Shown here piece after piece: positions 4,901 to 51,416 of a DNA stretch of 64,000 nt. Location: the NCBI GenBank assembly GCA_000004985.1, contig GG738862.1. One strand, 5' to 3'. The stretch's first letter is position 1. Every line of letters begins with the position of its first letter. The DNA is from Naegleria gruberi (lineage: Eukaryota). A model generated the notes under the pieces. That model saw only the letters and a list, made by a program, of their open reading frames with translations. It was not told where the DNA came from and searched no databases. Both the position numbers and the translations under genes were made by a program.

Positions 4901-6138
4901 GGCATCTCTTGTACATTCGAATATTTATGAGGATAGTTTTAACAAGATTGACTTTGCAAATAAGCATACCTTTAACAGATTTATGGTGAACAGATGGTTG
5001 GGTGTTAGAATCCATCTCAGTAAGTATTTTCACATTAACATTATTGCTCATCTTCACAGTTTCTCAATCTGTTTTGTTTTTTACTGCTATCTTTGCTATC
5101 ATTGCCAAACATACTCAAGAAATTAGTAGCCCAGCTTTCCTTGTATTGACCATTTCAAACTCTCTTCAGTTGAGTGATTGTTTCCAATCACTAGTTCGTT
5201 CGTTTGTTGAAGTTGAAAGTAACATGACTTGCGTGGAGAGAATTGTGTACTATGCTCAAAGTATCCCACAAGAAGCTGCCTACGATAAAGAAGGTGATCC
5301 AACCACAAGAGAATGGCCAACTAAGGGACACATTCAATTAGATCAATTGTCGGTAAGATACAGAGATGATTTGGATCCAGTTTTGAAGAATCTCGATTTG
5401 GATATCAAAGCAGGCACCAAAGTTGGTGTTGTAGGAAGGTATGTTTGAATATTTCTAACTTTCAAAATTAATATATAACATGAATATAGAACTGGAAGTG
5501 GAAAGAGTACTTTATTGATTTCTCTATTCAGATTCCTTGAAGCCAATGAAGGTAGCATCTCAATCGATGGTCTAGATATTTCCAATATTGGTTTGAGAAC
5601 TTTACGTAAAGCATTATTAATCATTCCTCAACAACCTGTTCTATTCTCTGGATCTATTCGATACAATTTGGATCCTTTCGATGAATTTGAGGATTATGAA
5701 ATATGGAATGCCCTCGAACGAGTTCATATGAAAGAAAAGATTCAACCACTCCAACTCTCCTTCACTGTTACTGAGAATGGAAGCAATTTTTCAATTGGTG
5801 AAAGACAATTACTCTCCCTTAGTAGATGTATTTTGAGGAAGGCAAATATTATCATCTTTGATGAATCCACTGCCTTTGTAGATCATAATAGTGATGAGTT
5901 GGTTCAGAAGGTTGTTAGGGAGGAATTTAAGGATAGTACAATCATAACCGTTGCTCACAGATTGGACACCATCATTGATTCGGATTGTATTGTATTTATG
6001 AAGGAGGGTGAAATTATAGAAACTGGAAGTCCAAAGGAATTACTCTTAGATGAAAGATCGAATTTCTCCTCTCTTGTGAGGGAAACTGGTAAACAATACT
6101 CTGACCACTTGAAGAACAAAGCTTTCAAGCTTGCTTAA
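1940..6138 (+). CDS. ABC transporter, ABCC/MRP subfamily (TMD–NBD–TMD–NBD); at least 4 exons
   Basis: ORFs 1775–2707, 2757–5126, 5002–5448 and 5515–6138 join into one MRP-like protein. NBD1 has Walker A GNTGSGKST and signature LSGGQKHRISLARA. TMD2 contains the MRP-conserved segment (NRWLGVRIHL ... FTAIFAII ... SNMTCVERI), and NBD2 reads VGVVGR|TGSGKSTL ... SIGERQLLSLSRC ... IIFDESTA. Introns: 5020–5059 (40 nt, GTAAGT..AG) and 5439–5489 (51 nt, GTATGT..AG). Both restore frame and are anchored to ORF ends. A further small intron is needed near 2687–2729 to join the first two ORFs; its exact position is uncertain. The first ATG in frame is at 1940 (MPPLISSS...); the ORF-track start at 1775 is a non-ATG codon. 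Stop TAA at 6136–6138. Confidence 0.85.
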
Positions 6139-23453: not shown

Positions 23454-23912
23454 TTAACCACCTCTCAATCTCAATACTAAATGCACAGTTGAATCCTTTT
23501 GAAGATTGTAATCACCAATAGTTCTTCCATCTTCCAATTGCTTACCGGCATAAATCAATCGTTGTTGATCTGAAGGAATACCTTCCTTATCAAATATCTT
23601 TTGTTTCATATTCTCAACAGTATCATTCGATTCCATTTCAATAGTGATTGTCTTTCCAGTTAAGGTTTTTACAAAGAGTTGCATTCCTCCTCTTAATCTC
23701 AACACCAAATGAAGAGTGGAGTCTTTTTGAATGTTGTAATCATTAATAGTTCTGCCATCTTCTAATTGTTTACCTGCAAAGATGAGTCTTTGTTGATCTG
23801 GTGAAATTCCTTCCTTATCTTGTACCTTTTGTTTCACATTTTCAATTGAATCATTAGATTCAACCTCCAAAGTGATAGTTCTTCCAGTGAGTGTCTTGAC
23901 AAATAATTGCAT
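23454..23912 (-). CDS. di-ubiquitin (two head-to-tail ubiquitin-fold repeats, each ending RLRGG), divergent from canonical ubiquitin, 152 aa
   Basis: The protein is [76 protein letters not shown] followed by [76 protein letters not shown] and a stop. L8, I44, K48, K63, H68 and the GG ends are conserved. Each repeat differs from canonical ubiquitin at roughly a dozen positions. The two repeats differ from each other at about 17 of 76 positions. Confidence 0.85.
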
Positions 23913-24399: not shown

Positions 24400-24523
24400 A
24401 AAAGACTACAGCACCACAGGTTCCCAAGTTGTCTCCAACCTCAGTACTGATGTAGCTCGACGATGCTTAACTTCTCAAATCGGACGGGATGAGGTGCATT
24501 CATCGTGATATGGCCGTAGCCAT
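24400..24523 (-). rRNA. 5S rRNA: 5S rRNA gene, copy 2 of 3
   Basis: Identical to copy 1 except one substitution (gatgtAgctcg versus gatgtGgctcg). Followed on the RNA strand by a T7 run. It shares an upstream element with copy 1 (see findings). Confidence 0.85.
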
Positions 24524-24759: not shown

Positions 24760-26539
24760 ATGAACAAACAAATACTGGGCCTTGCTCTCACGCTCTTGCT
24801 CTGTATTTCTTGTAGCGTATTTGCTTTGGACGCAACCGTTTACTATCAAAATGGTAAATATGTTGTTAAAAACGGATATGATTTGCAATCTGGTATTGCC
24901 GCAGCACATTATGATGATAGTTTTGAAGCTAAAGGATGGGATGTTCTCTCTATCGAAACTAATCACTTGACCAAGGATGATATGCAAAGTTATGGTGCTG
25001 GTTATTTGGAAGGTGTATTGACTAGAAAGAGAATTTATAATCACTATGTCAATATGCACACTTATTCATGGGCCAGTACTCCTGATAAGAAAATGCCACA
25101 ATATGTGAGAGATTTCTTTGAATCTCAACGTGCTTGGGTCAGAGATTCATCTGCCAAGTATGCCAACGATCCTTTCTGGCAACAAATCAAGACCGTTTAC
25201 TTGCAAATGGAAGGTCTCGTTCAAGGTTACAATGATGCTACTACTGATGCTTCCGAAAAAATTGATTATGCTAGCATGCAAGTTATGAGCTCTTTTGGTG
25301 ACATTTTCGATATTCTCAATGTCAAGAAGGATTTCAGACCAAACTTTAACAAGATGACTCCTGCTCAAGTTATTCAATTCGCTCAAGACAATGGTCACTG
25401 TTCTGCCTTGTTCAAGGTTACTCCAGATTTCAGTAATATCTACTTTGGACACACATCTTGGTTTACGTTTAGGTAGAGTTTCGTTTGTTTTTGACATTTT
25501 TTGTTATCTAACCATGTGCATTTTGTTAATATTTTACTGTTTATGTCACTTTTCACTTTTTAATTGAATTTTCACACATTCAGTGCTATGACGTAAGTTT
25601 CCTATTGCTGTTTTCTAACCATTAATCTCACGTTAAATTTTCAGTCGTATCTACAAGACTTACACTTTCAACTTCAACAGCAGATTGGTTGCTTCACCAA
25701 AGGTTACTTTCTCAAGTTACCCAGCTAATCTTGCTTCTAATGATGATTTTTACATTACTCAAAGTGGATTGGTTGTTATTGAAACATCTAACAATATTTT
25801 CAATACTTCTCTCTATGATTTGGTTAAGCCACAATCATTGCTCTGTTGGCAAAGAGTTATTTTGGCTAACAGACTTGCTGATGATGCTCCTTCTTGGAAT
25901 GATATCTTCTCTGAATATAACTCTGGTACTTACAATAACCAATTCATGGTTTTGGATACTAAGAAATTCGTTCCAGGTCAACCACTTGCCAAGAACTTGT
26001 TCTGGGTTGTTGAACAAATTCCAGGTAAGGTCGTTGGTGGTGACCAAACTGAAGTTCTTAGCTATGGTTATTGGCCAAGTTACAATGTTCCATTCTATCC
26101 AGAAGTTTTCACCATTTCTGGATATCCTGAAATTTTGAAGAAACCAAATGCTTCTGATATGTTGTCATACGAAACTTGTGTCAGAGCTAACATCTTCAGA
26201 AGAGATCAATATAAGGTCAACTCAATTGATGGAATGAAGAACATACTTAGATATAACAATTGGAAGTATGATCCACTTTCTCTTGGACAACCTGGATACG
26301 CAATTGCTTCTCGTAACGATTTGTCTCCAACTGCTACTGATGCTACAAGAAGCTGCAGTGGTGGTTATGATACTAAGGTTTCCTCAATTCTCGACATTAA
26401 CACTGTCCATATTATCAATGGTCCAACCAGTGTTGATCAACCAGTCTTTGCTTGGAATGGTCAATGCCCTGCCAAGTTCAGCCATGTTGGTTTGAAGCAA
26501 TCTTTCAAATATGATTGGATGACTGTTAAATGGAATTAA
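24760..26539 (+). CDS. phospholipase B-like (PLB/LAMA family) secreted protein; 2–3 exons including a candidate 9-nt micro-exon
   Basis: Signal peptide MNKQILGLALTLLLCISCSVFA. PLB-like family blocks are present across both ORFs (...DNGHCSALFKVTPDFSNIYFGHTSWFTF ... RIYKTYTFNF ... FMVLDTKKF ... WPSYNVPFYPEVF ...). Exon 1 is 24760–25472 with donor GTAGAG. The last exon is 25645–26539, acceptor TTTTCAG, anchored to the ORF. Between them, 25584–25592 (TGCTATGAC) is flanked by CATTCAG| and |GTAAGT. Including it gives ...HTSWFTFSAMTRIYK..., with an extra Ala-Met-Thr. Confidence 0.8.
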
Positions 26540-26617: not shown

Positions 26618-29600
26618 ATGACTGCAAACATCAACAAGCTTCAGTGCTGGCGGTCTTACTTGTTGATTCTTCTCTCTGTTATCCTTCTCGTTGGTGATGC
26701 ATCACCATTATCTTCATCAGCCCACTCAACATATGTTCGCTATCAGTTTGAAACTCTTGCCGGAAACCTTCAACCAGTTTTTTCTCTGTCATTCAAACAA
26801 ATTCAACAATCCAAAGTCAATCCTGATATTCTCTTCATAGTGTCTGCAAGTGATTCTCTTTACAAGTACAATCAAACAAGTGGAGAAAGGAACCTACTGG
26901 TCGGATGTGATGTGTTATCCTATAACTTGTGCATTAAAGAATCAATGGTAACCAACATTTCCCATCTGGCAACATCTGTTTCTATCTACATTACTGGATT
27001 TCATGTGATGGTTTCTTCTAATGAACAAGTAATTTATATTAGCACCGACCATCAATTGTTTCGAATGGAAAATAAGAATATTACACTCCTTTCGGCAATG
27101 TGGTCGACTAGTGATGAAAATCCAAACTTGGATGGAATGCATATTTCGGATAGTTGGTTTAGGTTTTTAAAATCAGTTGTTGTTGATGAAGATGAGAAGA
27201 CTTTATATCTTGCAGATGGACAAGTTATTAGAAAGTTGGATGTGGAAACTGGTATTTTAAAGTCCATCACAACAACAGGAGATGACCCAGTATCTAAGTT
27301 TGATGGACCTGCCAATCAGACTGTTCTTAAACTGCCACAAAAACTACTCCTTCATAATGGATTTCTTTATGGAAATGATGCATTTTCACTTTTTAAAATT
27401 AATATTCAAAGTGGATGGTTGACAGTAATAACTGGCACGATCAATTATATATTAGGTGTTAATTTTCCAGCTCCAAAATCAGGTGATAATGCTAAAAATT
27501 CAACACTTTTATCAATTCGTGGATTTCACATTATGGAGGATGATTCCATTCTAATAATTTCTGGAAATACTTTTTATCAGATCGATCAAAAAAGTGGATT
27601 ACTAACTATACTTTACAATTTTGAAGAAGCTATCTTTTTGGCAACACCCAATTTGGTATTTTCATTACAAAAGGTTTACAAATTAAATAGATTGAATTGG
27701 TCTATGGAAACAATTATAGATTCACATATTGGGGCCATTACGGATGGTTCAATAGCAAAGAATAGAAAATTCTTTGACATTTCAGCACTGACAATGAACG
27801 AAACCACTGGGGATTTACTATTTTCTGATTCATTGTCAAATTACAATCTTTACAAAGTTGATAAGGATGGAAGGTTTTTCACAGTGAATTTACAAATGTC
27901 AAACGTATCTTGTTGGAATTCCTCTATCAGAACTGATAGCTCTTTAACATTCAATCCAGTCTCTTTCCAATTGAGAAACTCTACTTTATATGTTGCCAAT
28001 TCTGGAATGCACAGTTCAATCCAAAAATTTGATCTATCTCAACAAGGATCAAGTTGCTTCTATTCAGGATCAATTTCAAGTGATAGACTTTTGCAACAAG
28101 GGAGTGGACTATCCATGTTGGTTAATAACCCTACTGGATTATATTGTAATATCAATTCTGACGAGATATTTGTTGCCGACACTGAAAACCACAGAATTCT
28201 CAAATATATTTCACATAATCTAGTTCAAGTAATTGCAGGTACTGGAAAGCAAGGTTTTTCAGGAGATGGTGGCTTAGCCATTCATGCTCAACTGAATAGA
28301 CCTCACTCAATTTCCTACGATCGTTCCAATAGAGATCTTTACATTGCAGGTATGTCATTCATTTTCATTATTTTAACATTCATAAAGATTCTGGAAATCA
28401 CAGAATTCGAAAGATTTCTTCTGATGGAACTATTTCTACAATTTTAGGAACTGGCTCGGGTGGATTTAATGGAGATGGTCTCCCTCCATTACAAACGCAA
28501 ATTAATTTCCCTAAAGGTGTTACTTACTCACCCTTTCTGGGAATTGCAATTTCTGATACCTATAACCATAGAGTGAGATTATTTAGAGAAGGAAATGTGA
28601 GCACAATATTGGGAACTGGAACATCTGGAATGAAAGTAGTGGAGGATAATCCAACAGAGACAGAGATTATTTCACCTTTTGGTCTGGTTTGGGCTGAATC
28701 AACTTCATCCCTTTACATAGCTGGTAAGTTTCGAATTTTAGTCGAACATTGACAAATTGTTTCAGATCAATTCAATCACAGAATATTACATCTCCAATAT
28801 CTATATGGTAGTGTAGCAATCATTGCAGGAACCAATTTACCTGGATATAATGGAGATGGCATGAAAGCTAACTTAGCCAAACTATTTCTTCCAAGTTCTG
28901 TAGTTTTGGCTCCTGACAATACAATTCTAATTGCAGACACTTACAATAATTTAATAAGGAAAATTAGTAATGGAATAATTTCTTCATTTGAAACAAAAAT
29001 TGGTCTTGGTCAATCCTATCAAATCAAACAACCGATTGGGTTGTGTTTAACATTATCTGGACCTTTTGTGACAACTGAAAATGCCGTTACCTCATTAAGT
29101 TCAGGCTATACCTCCAACATAATTGGAGGAAATGGAGATGGAATGAATGTTTATTATGCAGATGTTAATCCAACAAGAATGATACTCTCTCCATTTGGAA
29201 ATGAAGGATCAATGATATTTTCAGAATCGAATTCGAATAGAATAAGATATGTCGACAGTAATGGAATCATTTCAACCATTGTTGGTTGTGGAGTATTTGG
29301 ATATATGGGTGATAAATATCCTTCTCAATTTGCCTTTCTTGCTTCACCTACTGGTATAGCACTGAATCCAATAACAAATGATTTAATTTTCTGCGATACC
29401 TCCAATAATCGTATTAGAATAGCTTCTATAAATGAATTAAACGTAGTTGATACGATTGCTGGAACAGGAAATAGCGCATATGATTCAGAAGTATCAGATC
29501 CCTTACTCTCACCACTCAATAAGCCAAGAGTGGTTGCCACATTTAGCAATGGTGACATTGTCATTGGAGACACTTTAAATAATCTATTCAAGATGATTTC

Positions 29601-47031: not shown

Positions 47032-48742
47032 ATGGGTAATGTCATTGCTGATCAAGTGATGGAATCAAGTAATGGACTTTTTGGATGGAGTTCGGGAAGC
47101 CTTCTTGTGGCAGTACTTGTATTGTTTGCATTGTACAAGTTTATAGTGGCTAGTTATGGAGTCTATTCACAAGCAAACAAACTAAAGATGATTCCTGGAG
47201 TGAGCCAATACTTCTTTTCTCCTTTTTATATTCCATTCTTTGCTCCGTATGCATATATGGGTAATTCAAAACATGTGCCAGAATTTATTGAAAAGTATGG
47301 TGATAAGAATAAGACTTTCAGACTTTCATTTATTGACCGTTCAGCACTTTGGATAAGTGATCCAAAATTATTGAAAGAGTTCTTTATTACAAAGGCAACC
47401 CATTTTGACAAACCAAAGTTTGTTTATGAAATGATGAATATCTTTGGAGAGAATATTTTGACAGCTATGAATAACGATACATGGAAGAAGCATTTCAGGA
47501 TTTGCAGTCCTGCTTTTGTCCCAAAGAACTTGGAATATACTTGCAGAGTTGCCACAAAAACTTGTGATTTAATGTTCAAGAATTGGAATAGAAAAATTGA
47601 AAAGAATGGAAACATGCAATTAACTGTTGGCGATTATTCTGATATTACACTTGGTAAGTTTCAGTTGACGACTCAATCAATATTTAGAGAGAAAATATAG
47701 ACATTTTAGGAAAAGCTGGATTCAATATTGATTTTGGTATCTTTTCTGATAATGCTGAAGGTAGAAAATTCAGAGAGTCTATGGATTTAATGATGGCTAA
47801 GGGTCTTTTGATGAGAAGATTTTTGAAAGCTGATTCATTTTTATATAATTTAATTGGAAAATTCACTGGAGTTATTGAGGCTATTGAATATTGTGGAAAT
47901 ACTCTCGATAAAATTATCAATGAAAGAAGAGAAGCTGTCAAGCAGCGTATCAGTGGAGCTAATGATGATGAATATAGTGATATTTTGAGTTTGCTTGTAG
48001 AAGCCAACGTACTTGAGAACTTATTAACAGATGGTGAAGTTAAGAGTAATTCGATGATAATGGTGCTTGCTGGCCATGAAACGACGTCAACTTGTAAGTT
48101 TGATTGCATGATAATGTATCTCATCTCATCCTAATAGTGATGCAATGGGTTTCTTATGAAATTTCAAAGAAGCCAGAAATTCAAGACAAGTTATTTAAGG
48201 AAGTTACTGAGGTTTTGAATGGAAGAGATCCAACCTATGAGGATGTCGAAAAGTTGCACTATGTTAATGCTGTTTTGATGGAAACTCTTCGTTACAGACC
48301 TCCAGTTTCTGCAATTATTCGTCAAGCAAACAGAAACACTACTCTTGGAGATTATCCAATTCCAAAAGGAACTACCATCAACCCAATGTTCCAATATCTT
48401 CACAAGAGACCAGACATTTGGACTGAACCAAACTCTTATATGCCAGAAAGATTTGTTGACCCACAATTCAGAGAGGAATCTCAACATAATTTAACATTCT
48501 TGGCTTTCAGTTTTGGTAATAGGTAAGTATTGATGATATTTCAATTTGTAATATTAACAATATTAAGACAATGTATTGGTAAGAAGTTTAGTTTGTTGGA
48601 GGCTTGTATGATTTTGGCTAAACTTATTCAAAACTACAAGTTTAGATTGTTGAATGATGAAACTGTTGATCCAGTTGTTAGTCATATCAGAGTTGTAAAT
48701 AGACCTTCCAAAAATATGAAAATTGAAATTACAAGAAGATAA
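47032..48742 (+). CDS. cytochrome P450; 4 exons, 521 aa
   Basis: Exons are 47032–47653, 47710–48093, 48138–48522 and 48568–48742. Introns are 47654–47709 (GTAAGT..TTAG), 48094–48137 (GTAAGT..ATAG) and 48523–48567 (GTAAGT..TAAG). All are frame-consistent and anchored to ORF ends. The spliced protein gives the I-helix AGHETTSTLMQWVSYEISKKPEIQ, the K-helix ETLR, PERF, and the heme loop FSFGNRQCIGKKF. N-terminal membrane anchor present. Confidence 0.85.
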
Positions 48743-50624: not shown

Positions 50625-51416
50625 TTATTTAAAGTTTACAGTGTGGAATCTTAGTGTTTTTTTGCCGCCATTTCCAACAACTGGTGGCAAGACTAATTCT
50701 TCTGGTGGTTTATCGATGGAACTGCAAATGTTTTCTAACCAACCCTTTCGTTTGGCATTTGACTTTTTCTTTGAGTTGCTACCTGTTGGAGTGGTTGGAG
50801 TATTAGAATTGCTAGAGGATACACTGGAAGAAACTCCAGCAGACGAAACTGTGATTGAATGATTAATTGCAAAAGTATTGTCCTTCTTTCTCTTCTTCGA
50901 TTGGTCGTAGAATTCGTTCGAGCTGGAAATTTCCTTTCGTTTCTTTTTAGTTTCTTCCTGTTGAGGAGGTTGAGGATTTGGTTGAGCTGCGAAAATGAGA
51001 TTTGCAAAAGGTTGTTCGATAATTGCAGCAATTGTGGATTGTAATTGCTCTTCAAAGAGTGGAGTCATGGTTTCGCCTACTAGCAAAGGATTCATCAATG
51101 AATTGTTGCTATTCGAAAGTAAACACTGTTCTGCAACATTTTCATTGGATGAAATTAATTCAGAATGTAAATCTACATTATTGAGGGTTATACTACTAGT
51201 ACTACTATCGGTTTGTTGTTGAATCGGAATTGGAGAAAAGACGCTGGATTGGTTTTCAAAATACTCTACATTACTAGACGAAACTATTGACGAATCAAAA
51301 CTAAAGGATGGTTCTTGATTAAACAAAAGAAAGACTTCATTGTTTTGAGGGAATAGACTGTTCAATTCACTTTCCCAATTGTCTTCCAAAATAAAGTCGG
51401 CAAGAGTCGAATCCAT
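50625..51416 (-). CDS. Ser/Thr/Asn-rich hypothetical protein with basic C-terminal region, 263 aa
   Basis: ATG ORF with low-complexity S/T-rich stretches. A basic cluster KKKSNAKRKGW lies near the C-terminus. No recognised domain. Confidence 0.5.
   Translation of the reverse strand: MDSTLADFILEDNWESELNSLFPQNNEVFLLFNQEPSFSFDSSIVSSSNVEYFENQSSVFSPIPIQQQTDSSTSSITLNNVDLHSELISSNENVAEQCLLSNSNNSLMNPLLVGETMTPLFEEQLQSTIAAIIEQPFANLIFAAQPNPQPPQQEETKKKRKEISSSNEFYDQSKKRKKDNTFAINHSITVSSAGVSSSVSSSNSNTPTTPTGSNSKKKSNAKRKGWLENICSSIDKPPEELVLPPVVGNGGKKTLRFHTVNFK

What the first reader, a model, noticed from the sequence alone, without database searches (positions are those of the whole stretch)
25584..25592. Candidate 9-nt micro-exon in the phospholipase-B-like gene
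Between exon 1 (ends 25472, donor GTAGAG) and the last exon (starts 25645), the 9-nt segment TGCTATGAC is flanked by a perfect acceptor (CATTCAG|) and a perfect donor (|GTAAGT). Including it keeps the frame and inserts Ala-Met-Thr, giving ...WFTFSAMTRIYK.... That restores an (A)M(L/T)RIYK-like block that I recall from PLB-like proteins, which is more convincing than direct exon 1 to exon 3 splicing (...WFTFSRIYK...). Micro-exons of 9 nt are rare and easily missed by gene predictors.
Basis: inference. Interest (0 to 1): 0.55.

Follow-up and report, generated by a model that had tools for sequence, protein, structure and literature searches.

The report
Missed 9-base exon in Naegleria phospholipase-B-like gene
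A real 9-base exon (Ala-Met-Thr) in the phospholipase-B-like gene of the amoeba Naegleria gruberi is left out of the public gene model, so the reference protein lacks three conserved residues: a useful correction, but an ordinary kind of annotation error.

Summary
TGCTATGAC (25584-25592) follows ...ATTCAG and precedes GTAAGT, and it keeps the reading frame. The window is Naegleria gruberi. The gene is NAEGRDRAFT_32896 (XP_002678284.1, UniProt D2VBV7). Its public 535-aa protein is exactly the model that skips the 9 bases; the 538-aa form is absent from a 15-billion-protein collection.

Including the 9 bases restores ...HTSWFTFSAMTRIYK.... N. lovaniensis and N. fowleri encode this same string, and Willaertia differs by two residues outside SAMT. 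It aligns without a gap to solved bovine PLBD1 ([13 protein letters not shown]). All 118 homologues examined have residues in these three columns. Inclusion raises the Pfam score by 14 bits and ranks first of 343 in-frame GT-AG splice paths.

The key comparison is a sister Naegleria contig. It encodes FAAMT continuously with exon 1 and then uses the same AC|GTAAGT donor, the same TTCTAACCAT motif and the same CAG|T acceptor. So the downstream intron is orthologous, and the 111-nt upstream intron is specific to N. gruberi. That upstream intron turned the last 9 bases of an older exon into a micro-exon.

I found no transcript data, so some skipping cannot be excluded. This is a new example of a known class, the coding micro-exon missed by gene predictors.

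The parts
24760..25472 (+). Exon 1 of the phospholipase-B-like gene. It runs from the ATG to ...TGG TTT ACG TTT AG and ends in phase 2. It encodes the signal-peptide-like N-terminus, the HCS nucleophile motif and ...GHTSWFTF(S).
   Evidence: sequence and translation. PF04916 matches end to end; identical to exon 1 of XP_002678284.1.
25473..25583 (+). Intron 1, 111 nt. The donor is GTAGAGT (GTAAGT with one extra G) and the acceptor is cattCAG. There is no AG between the donor region and the acceptor. This intron is specific to N. gruberi.
   Evidence: It is absent at this site in L002, L055, N. lovaniensis, W. magna, Acanthamoeba and Exaiptasia. It is present and identical in L004.
25508..25512 (+). 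Branch-point-like CTAAC inside TGTTATCTAACCAT in intron 1. The first AG downstream of it is the micro-exon acceptor, 71 nt on.
   Evidence: 13 of 14 bases match the corresponding motif of intron 2, and the AG positions are listed there.
25465..25472 (+). ACGTTTAG, the exonic copy of an imperfect 8-nt direct repeat that flanks intron 1.
   Evidence: It matches the copy at 25576-25583 at 6 of 8 positions, and both mismatches fall on synonymous third codon positions. This is weak evidence (my estimate, p about 0.01 to 0.06).
25576..25583 (+). ACATTCAG, the intronic copy of the direct repeat. Read together with the micro-exon, the genome encodes T-F-S-A-M-T continuously, as in the intronless W. 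magna sequence ACATTTAGTGCAATGAC.
   Evidence: (read-through translation ...NFHTFSAMT*).
25584..25592 (+). The 9-nt micro-exon TGCTATGAC. It completes the Ser codon, encodes Ala and Met, and supplies the first two bases of the Thr codon.
25593..25644 (+). Intron 2, 52 nt: consensus donor GTAAGT, TGTTTTCTAACCAT motif, acceptor tttCAG. It is orthologous to the only intron of the sister-species gene in L002.
   Evidence: The L002 intron (1756-1802, 47 nt) is at the same codon position and phase and has the same motifs.
25615..25619 (+). Branch-point-like CTAAC of intron 2, 26 nt upstream of the acceptor.
25645..26539 (+). Last exon, from T CGT ATC TAC AAG (..RIYK..) to the TAA stop.

Best explanation
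The phospholipase-B-like gene of Naegleria gruberi (NAEGRDRAFT_32896) has three exons, not two.

Structure. Exon 1 (24760-25472) is joined to a 9-nt micro-exon (25584-25592) and then to the last exon (25645-26539). Two short introns of 111 nt and 52 nt are removed independently. The product is a 538-aa secreted or lysosomal Ntn-hydrolase-type PLB-like protein with the family-typical W-x7-R-I-x-K spacing (...HTSWFTFSAMTRIYK...).

How it is spliced (inferred). Each intron has its own donor, its own TCTAACCAT branch-point-like motif and its own acceptor. In an organism with short introns, splice sites are paired across the intron, so a small exon between them is not an obstacle. From the first branch motif, the first AG is the micro-exon acceptor. 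The micro-exon donor is a perfect GTAAGT and lies much closer to the second branch motif than the weak exon 1 donor GTAGAG does.

Origin (inferred from comparison). The downstream intron is older and is shared with a sister species. The upstream intron was inserted in the N. gruberi lineage 9 nt upstream of it. That insertion cut the last three codons off exon 1.

Consequence. The public 535-aa model is a gene-prediction error that deletes Ala-Met-Thr.
For: Shown by tool results:
- The signals and reading frame are as stated.
- The public protein XP_002678284.1/D2VBV7 is exactly the skipping model, and the 538-aa form is in no source.
- PF04916 scores 558.5 bits with the micro-exon and 544.6 without it.
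- The protein aligns without a gap to solved PLBD1 and PLBD2 across the site.
- The orthologues of N. lovaniensis and N. fowleri read SAMTRIYK and that of W. magna reads SAMTRIFK. A further heterolobosean-like metagenome protein reads SAMTRIYK, and two others read ASMTRIW and TSMTRIY.
- None of 118 homologues has a gap in the three columns. Met is the majority residue in the middle column, and R, I and K follow almost invariantly.
- The micro-exon path ranks first of 343 in-frame GT-AG paths. It beats the annotated path by 14.6 bits and the next-best path by 9 bits, and this holds when the profile is built without heterolobosean sequences.
- L002, a sister Naegleria at 81-87% nucleotide identity, reads TTT GCA GCG ATG AC|GTAAGTTTG..TTTTCTAACCATTA..TTTCAG|T CGT ATC. 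In that species the same donor must be used, and AMT is attached to exon 1.
- L055, another Naegleria-like contig, encodes FSAMT continuously and then has an intron one codon further on.
- N. lovaniensis and W. magna encode SAMTR with no intron at this place.
- An independent N. gruberi strain, L004, has the identical interval.
- In a high-confidence model of the N. lovaniensis orthologue (pLDDT 95.3), AMT sits in a 6-residue connector between two core strands, just before R-I-x-K.

Inferred: the order and independence of the two splicing reactions, and that inclusion dominates.
Against: - No RNA evidence was reachable. The 538-aa protein is not in the collection. No spliced junction of either kind was found in the metagenome or metatranscriptome contigs. 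A junction-centred protein search found no N. gruberi transcript-derived fragment.
- The exon 1 donor GTAGAG departs from consensus.
- The CTAAC of intron 1 lies 71 nt from its acceptor, further than in the other short introns I saw (about 26-31 nt).
- The 105-nt stretch without AG is not remarkable once the T-rich local composition is taken into account (p = 0.09).
- Skipping also keeps the reading frame, so a minor skipped isoform is possible.
Confidence: 0.9

Rival explanations
1. The public model is right. Exon 1 is spliced directly to the last exon, one 172-nt intron is removed, and the 9-mer is a dead remnant of the old exon end left inside the intron.
For: It is the deposited annotation. 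It keeps the frame. The exon 1 donor could in principle pair with the second branch motif and acceptor. 172 nt is within the range for N. gruberi, whose mean intron length is 203 bp according to PMC8296547.
Against: It would give N. gruberi a 3-residue deletion that none of 118 homologues, no other Naegleria and no solved structure has. It costs 14 bits against Pfam. It requires the spliceosome to ignore a perfect GTAAGT donor that the sister species demonstrably uses. It also requires the spliceosome to pass over the first AG after the first branch motif. Ab initio predictors cannot-nt exons, so the annotation is not independent evidence; PMC8831610 documents the same error on a large scale in plants.
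Confidence: 0.04
2. The 9-mer is a cassette exon. Both the 538-aa and the 535-aa mRNAs are made in appreciable amounts, for example depending on the amoeba, flagellate or cyst stage.
For: Both forms are in frame. The upstream donor is weak and the upstream intron is young. In plants, coding micro-exons are mostly included but show some alternative splicing (PMC8831610).
Against: No data show any skipping. The tripeptide lies in a conserved core connector next to the nearly invariant R-I-x-K, so a skipped product would probably be defective rather than a regulated variant. The intron 2 donor is consensus and proximal.
Confidence: 0.06
3. A different splice path is used. One option is the 12-nt internal exon 25598-25609 (SFLLL). 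Another is an alternative exon 1 donor at 25467 or 25461.
For: These paths are in frame and use GT-AG.
Against: They score 9 to 22 bits below the micro-exon path against profiles built from homologues. The 12-nt option would use the AG inside the GTAAGT as its acceptor and a poor GTTTTC donor. None of these paths restores the residues conserved in the orthologues.
Confidence: 0.01

Closest known systems
Constitutive coding micro-exons of 15 nt or less that genome annotation misses, such as the 9-nt micro-exons of plant AP2-domain and invertase (GH32) genes (PMC8831610)
   Same: The exon is 9 nt long, in frame and flanked by canonical AG and GT. It encodes a few conserved residues inside a catalytic-domain fold. 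The reference gene model leaves it out, and the resulting protein lacks a family motif. It can be detected by comparing with homologues.
   Different: The organism is a heterolobosean amoeba with few, short introns. I found no paper that deals with micro-exons in Naegleria: the two papers containing both words concern other organisms. The plant examples are ancient and conserved across land plants. This one is young: it is present in N. gruberi strains but not in a sister species at about 85% nucleotide identity. Inclusion here rests on comparative evidence, not on RNA-seq.
Phospholipase B-like / LAMA family (Pfam PF04916): mammalian PLBD1 and PLBD2, and the PLB-like proteins of N. fowleri
   Same: The Pfam match covers the full length. 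The HCS nucleophile motif, the W-x7-R-I-x-K block and a hydrophobic N-terminus are present. Identity to the N. lovaniensis orthologue is 80%; the N. fowleri orthologue clusters with it at 90% or more.
   Different: Nothing about the protein is unusual once the micro-exon is included. No enzymatic activity was tested.
Recently gained introns flanked by short direct repeats (as reported in Daphnia populations) and transposon-like 'introner' elements that take one splice site from a target-site duplication (both from my own knowledge, not checked in the library)
   Same: Intron 1 is lineage-specific. It is flanked by an imperfect 8-nt direct repeat, ACGTTTAG / ACATTCAG. The second copy provides the acceptor AG, and the inserted segment begins with GT.
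   Different: The repeat matches at only 6 of 8 positions, and part of that match is explained by splice-site and codon constraints. There are no terminal inverted repeats. No second copy of the intron exists in the 64-kb window. The whole genome could not be searched.

Membership tests
Coding micro-exon (15 nt or less) missed by annotation | An internal segment of 15 nt or less, bounded by a canonical acceptor AG and donor GT, that keeps the reading frame | tested here: met
   CAG|TGCTATGAC|GTAAGT, 9 nt, phase 2 to phase 2.
Coding micro-exon (15 nt or less) missed by annotation | The encoded residues are present and conserved in homologues | tested here: met
   SAMTR is identical in N. lovaniensis, N. 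fowleri and W. magna. All 118 of 118 homologues are ungapped at this place. Solved PLBD1 and PLBD2 are ungapped too.
Coding micro-exon (15 nt or less) missed by annotation | Both flanking introns are viable on their own (length and branch-point-like motif) | tested here: met
   The introns are 111 nt and 52 nt, each with TCTAACCAT. Introns in the orthologues are 47 to 59 nt.
Coding micro-exon (15 nt or less) missed by annotation | The exon is absent from the reference gene model | tested here: met
   XP_002678284.1 / EFC45540.1 / D2VBV7 equals the 535-aa skipping model exactly. The 538-aa form is not in the collection.
Coding micro-exon (15 nt or less) missed by annotation | Spliced transcripts contain the exon | not testable with these tools
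   No N. gruberi transcript data were reachable. The junction pattern scan and the junction-centred protein search found nothing of either isoform.
Phospholipase B-like (PF04916) Ntn-hydrolase family | A full-length match to the family profile above the curated cut-off | tested here: met
   558.5 bits against a cut-off of 27, covering profile positions 1-487 of 487.
Phospholipase B-like (PF04916) Ntn-hydrolase family | A Cys nucleophile at the autocleavage site (H-C-S) | tested here: met
   C214 is invariant in 58 aligned sequences and aligns to residue 1 of the PLBD1 and PLBD2 large subunits.
Phospholipase B-like (PF04916) Ntn-hydrolase family | Hydrolase activity and autoproteolytic maturation | not testable with these tools
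   This needs biochemistry.
Introner / transposon-derived intron (considered for intron 1 only) | Many similar copies in the same genome | tested here: inconclusive
   There is no second copy in the 64-kb window (best hit 21 nt, E = 0.05). The rest of the genome was not available.
Introner / transposon-derived intron (considered for intron 1 only) | A target-site duplication flanking the insert | tested here: inconclusive
   ACGTTTAG and ACATTCAG match at 6 of 8 positions. Part of this is expected from splice-site and codon constraints.

The most novel reading that the evidence does not exclude
The micro-exon records a datable, very recent intron gain in Naegleria. A 111-nt intron, flanked by an imperfect 8-nt direct repeat and starting with a bulged GTA(G)AGT donor, was inserted 9 nt upstream of an existing intron after N. 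gruberi split from a sister species at about 85% nucleotide identity. The site lies in a 33-nt stretch of coding sequence that carries four different intron positions across Naegleria-like species. If the rest of the genome holds similar copies of this intron, it would point to an active intron-generating element in Heterolobosea.
Probability: 0.25. Interest if true: 0.55.

Novelty: new member of a known kind. Interest (0 to 1): 0.33.

Why it matters
In practice, the reference protein of a model amoeba (XP_002678284.1, UniProt D2VBV7) is wrong by three conserved residues in the catalytic-domain core. PLB-like proteins are discussed as candidate pathogenicity and metabolism factors in the related brain-eating N. 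fowleri (PMC8296547), so comparisons between N. gruberi and N. fowleri inherit this error.

The case also implies that the 2010 N. gruberi annotation was built without any way of calling micro-exons, and other such exons are probably missing from it.

For evolution, it is a clean small example of how a micro-exon is born: a new intron lands next to an old one. It also shows fast intron turnover inside one genus. None of this changes current understanding of splicing or of the enzyme family.

Tried and rejected
- **Transcript evidence.** An exact look-up of the 538-aa protein found nothing. A scan of metagenome and metatranscriptome contigs for either spliced junction found nothing. A junction-centred 149-aa protein search found no N. 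gruberi fragment, but it did turn up L055.
- **Closer relatives in JGI metagenomes.** The search returned only homologues at 50% identity or less, with contiguous matches, which say nothing about this intron.
- **Folding the spliced 538-aa protein.** I folded the N. lovaniensis orthologue instead.
- **Intron signal consensus from the window.** The window has too few introns. The first, ORF-continuity screen gave mostly noise. The CTAAC-anchored screen gave only one clean extra example, at 5439-5489. I therefore make no quantitative claim about Naegleria branch-point spacing.
- **The AG-free stretch in intron 1 as a statistical argument.** It is rare across the window (0.5% of gaps) but p = 0.09 given the local T-rich composition, so I give it little weight.
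- **Intron 1 as a duplicate of intron 2.** The only shared block is the 14-nt TGTT(A/T)TCTAACCAT, at 13 of 14 positions (p about 0.01 by shuffling). A similar 13-mer also occurs at 50729, so it may be a general intron motif (not checked) rather than a sign of homology.
- **A longer exon 2 starting further upstream and encoding TFSAMT.** This is impossible with GT-AG introns, because there is no AG between 25478 and 25582.
- **Minus strand.** No ORF overlaps the micro-exon.

Full report
**1. What is in the sequence**

The window has 31-38% G+C. Around the finding it carries a plus-strand gene that starts at the ATG at 24760.
- Exon 1 ends at 25472 (...CAC ACA TCT TGG TTT ACG TTT AG) and is followed by GTAGAG.
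- The 9-mer TGCTATGAC lies at 25584-25592, preceded by cacattCAG and followed by GTAAGT.
- The last exon begins at 25645 after aattttCAG and runs to the TAA at 26537-26539.
- Exon 1 ends in phase 2. Direct splicing gives ...WFTF-S-RIYK... (535 aa). Including the 9-mer gives ...WFTF-S-A-M-T-RIYK... (538 aa).

**2. Which organism and gene this is**

An exact-sequence look-up shows that the 535-aa skipping product is identical, end to end, to Naegleria gruberi EFC45540.1 / XP_002678284.1 / UniProt D2VBV7 (NAEGRDRAFT_32896). The 538-aa product is not present in the roughly 15-billion-sequence collection. So the window is N. gruberi, and the public gene model omits the 9 bases.

The protein matches Pfam PF04916 (Phospholipase B) over its full length. 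The score is 558.5 bits with the micro-exon and 544.6 bits without it.

**3. Is it more than chance?**

- AG-N9-GTAAGT occurs three times in the 128 kb of both strands. About 0.003 occurrences are therefore expected in an interval this size.
- Inside the annotated 172-nt intron, only two in-frame internal exons with flanking introns of at least 30 nt are possible. One is the 9-mer (SAMT). The other is a 12-mer (SFLLL) with a poor GTTTTC donor.
- By my own estimate from base composition, a random 9-mer encodes Ala-Met-Thr in this register with a probability of about 3e-5.
- An independent metagenome contig from another N. gruberi strain (L004, 99.3% identical over 2,524 nt) has an identical interval. 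This rules out an assembly artefact.

**4. Protein-level evidence**

- Solved bovine PLBD1 (4bwc_B: [37 protein letters not shown]) and mouse PLBD2 (3fbx...HNTWNSYQNMLRIIKKY...) align to the 538-aa form without any gap across the site.
- The annotated orthologues of N. lovaniensis (80% identity) and N. fowleri read HTSWFTFSAMTRIYK. Willaertia magna reads HSSWFTFSAMTRIFK. Three other metagenome homologues at 50-55% identity, probably heterolobosean, read SAMTRIY, ASMTRIW and TSMTRIY.
- In a MAFFT alignment of 118 homologues, none has a gap in the three columns. Those columns are mostly A/S, M/T and T/L/M, and they are followed by the nearly invariant R, I and K.
- I enumerated all 343 in-frame GT-AG paths (one or two introns, each at least 30 nt) through 25380-25760 and scored them against profiles built from the homologues. 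The micro-exon path ranks first. It scores 744.4 bits, against 735.4 for the next path and 729.7 for the annotated path, which ranks fifth. The order is the same when all heterolobosean sequences are left out of the profile.
- An AlphaFold model of the N. lovaniensis orthologue (mean pLDDT 95.3) places A244-M245-T246 in a six-residue connector between core strands 232-241 and 248-253. Skipping would halve that connector, immediately before R-I-x-K.

**5. Comparative gene structure, the decisive evidence**

L002 is a contig from a sister Naegleria species (81-87% nucleotide identity, 90% amino-acid identity in the last exon). It reads ...TGG TTC GTG TTT GCA GCG ATG AC|GTAAGTTTGTTTTCTAACCATTATCATAATATCATTGAAAATTTCAG|T CGT ATC TAT AAG. 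In that species:
- FAAMT is continuous with exon 1.
- The gene's only intron (47 nt) sits at exactly the position and phase of the window's second intron.
- It has the same GTAAGTTT start, the same TTTTCTAACCAT motif and the same TTTCAG|T end.
- With that single intron removed, the L002 gene translates into a complete PLB-like protein.

So the donor after ...ATGAC is a functioning donor in the sister species. N. gruberi differs only by 111 extra bases inserted nine bases upstream of it.

Other relatives agree:
- N. lovaniensis encodes TCA GCC ATG ACA AGA with no intron at this place. Its three introns (59, 56 and 57 nt) lie elsewhere.
- The W. magna gene has no introns and reads ACA TTT AGT GCA ATG ACT AGA.
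- L055, another Naegleria-like contig, reads TTT TCA GCA ATG ACT AG|GTAAGT...TTAG|A ATT TAC AAG. There FSAMT is again continuous, and an intron sits one codon further downstream.
- Neither Acanthamoeba nor the sea anemone Exaiptasia has an intron at either N. gruberi position. Acanthamoeba does appear to share the G|H intron position of N. lovaniensis.

By parsimony, intron 2 was gained before N. gruberi and the L002 species split, and intron 1 was gained afterwards in the N. gruberi lineage. That second gain turned the last nine bases of the old exon into a micro-exon.

**6. How it most likely works**

This section is inference.
- Both introns carry their own TGTT(A/T)TCTAACCAT motif, at 25508 and at 25615. 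It resembles the yeast-type UACUAAC branch site.
- In intron 1, the only AG dinucleotides are two within the donor GTAGAG and the acceptor itself. From the first branch motif, the first AG met is therefore the micro-exon acceptor.
- Intron 2 has a consensus GTAAGT donor only 22 nt upstream of its branch motif.
- With introns of 40-110 nt, splice sites are normally paired across the intron. This is the established 'intron definition' model, which I cite from my own knowledge. Under it, a 9-nt exon is no obstacle, and each intron is removed as its own unit.
- Skipping would require the weak distal donor GTAGAG to out-compete the proximal consensus donor for the second branch site.
- GTAGAGT equals GTAAGT with one extra G, so it could pair with U1 with a bulged base. 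This too is from my own knowledge and was not tested.

Caveats. The 71-nt distance between branch motif and acceptor in intron 1 is long. The AG-free stretch is not significant given the local composition (p = 0.09). The window contains too few introns to define a Naegleria consensus.

**7. What could not be shown**

No transcript data were reachable. Constitutive inclusion is therefore inferred, not observed, and a minor skipped isoform cannot be excluded.

**8. Comparison with what is known**

This belongs to the well-described class of very small coding micro-exons that gene predictors miss. The closest parallels are the 9-nt micro-exons of plant AP2 and invertase genes, which are left out of several reference annotations with loss of conserved motifs (PMC8831610).

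The two papers in the library that contain both 'Naegleria' and 'microexon' are about other organisms, and I found none that deals with micro-exons in Naegleria.

The enzyme itself is an ordinary member of the PLB-like family. PLB-like genes are mentioned among the genes up-regulated in mouse-passaged N. fowleri (PMC8296547).

**9. Verdict**

The finding is a new member of a known kind. It has modest interest as a correction to a reference protein and as a neat case of a micro-exon created by a recent intron gain.

The flanking 8-nt direct repeat (ACGTTTAG / ACATTCAG) hints at an insertion or repair mechanism, but it is statistically weak.

Noticed in passing
window 24403-24521 (-): A complete 5S rRNA gene (Rfam RF00001, 102.7 bits) lies between the di-ubiquitin gene and the PLB-like gene, about 240 nt upstream of the PLB start codon on the opposite strand.
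   Followed up: partly
window 23454-23912 (-): An intronless ORF encodes two tandem, diverged ubiquitin units (152 aa, each ending in LRLRGG). The two repeats differ from each other at many positions, which is unusual for polyubiquitin.
   Followed up: partly
window 25447-25650; L001 3705-3800; L002 1721-1810; L055 560-670: Four different intron positions fall within about 33 nt of coding sequence across Naegleria-like species. They are GG|A (N. lovaniensis, a position that appears to be shared with Acanthamoeba), AG|T (N. gruberi only), AC|T (N. gruberi and L002) and AG|A (L055, one codon downstream of AC|T). This looks like a local hot spot of intron gain, loss or sliding.
   Followed up: partly
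window 25465-25472 and 25576-25583: An imperfect 8-nt direct repeat (ACGTTTAG / ACATTCAG) flanks intron 1. Both mismatches are at synonymous third codon positions of the exonic copy. Because of the second copy, the genome reads T-F-S-A-M-T continuously into the micro-exon, as if the old exon end had been duplicated at the insertion.
   Followed up: partly
window 25502-25515, 25609-25622 and 50729-50741: The extended motif GTT(A/T)TCTAACCAT is shared by both introns of this gene, and an exact 13-nt copy occurs at 50729. It may be an extended branch-site consensus in N. gruberi. I did not check whether 50729 lies in an intron.
   Followed up: no
L002 and L004 (both from ENA metagenome assembly ERZ929261, PRJEB11402): The same metagenome contains two Naegleria genomes. 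One is 99.3% identical to the window (an N. gruberi strain). The other is a distinct sister species at about 81-87% nucleotide identity. This could be a source for dating intron gains.
   Followed up: partly
window 26620 onward (+): The next gene downstream starts about 80 nt after the PLB stop codon. Its counterpart in L004 (2142-3971, 609 aa) has weak NHL-repeat Pfam hits.
   Followed up: no
window 5439-5489, 5020-5059, 28350-28387, 28724-28765, 48094-48137 (+): Candidate very short introns of 38-51 nt with GTAAGT or GTATGT donors join long open frames. They are consistent with intron-definition splicing in this genome, but I did not verify them against homologues.
   Followed up: no
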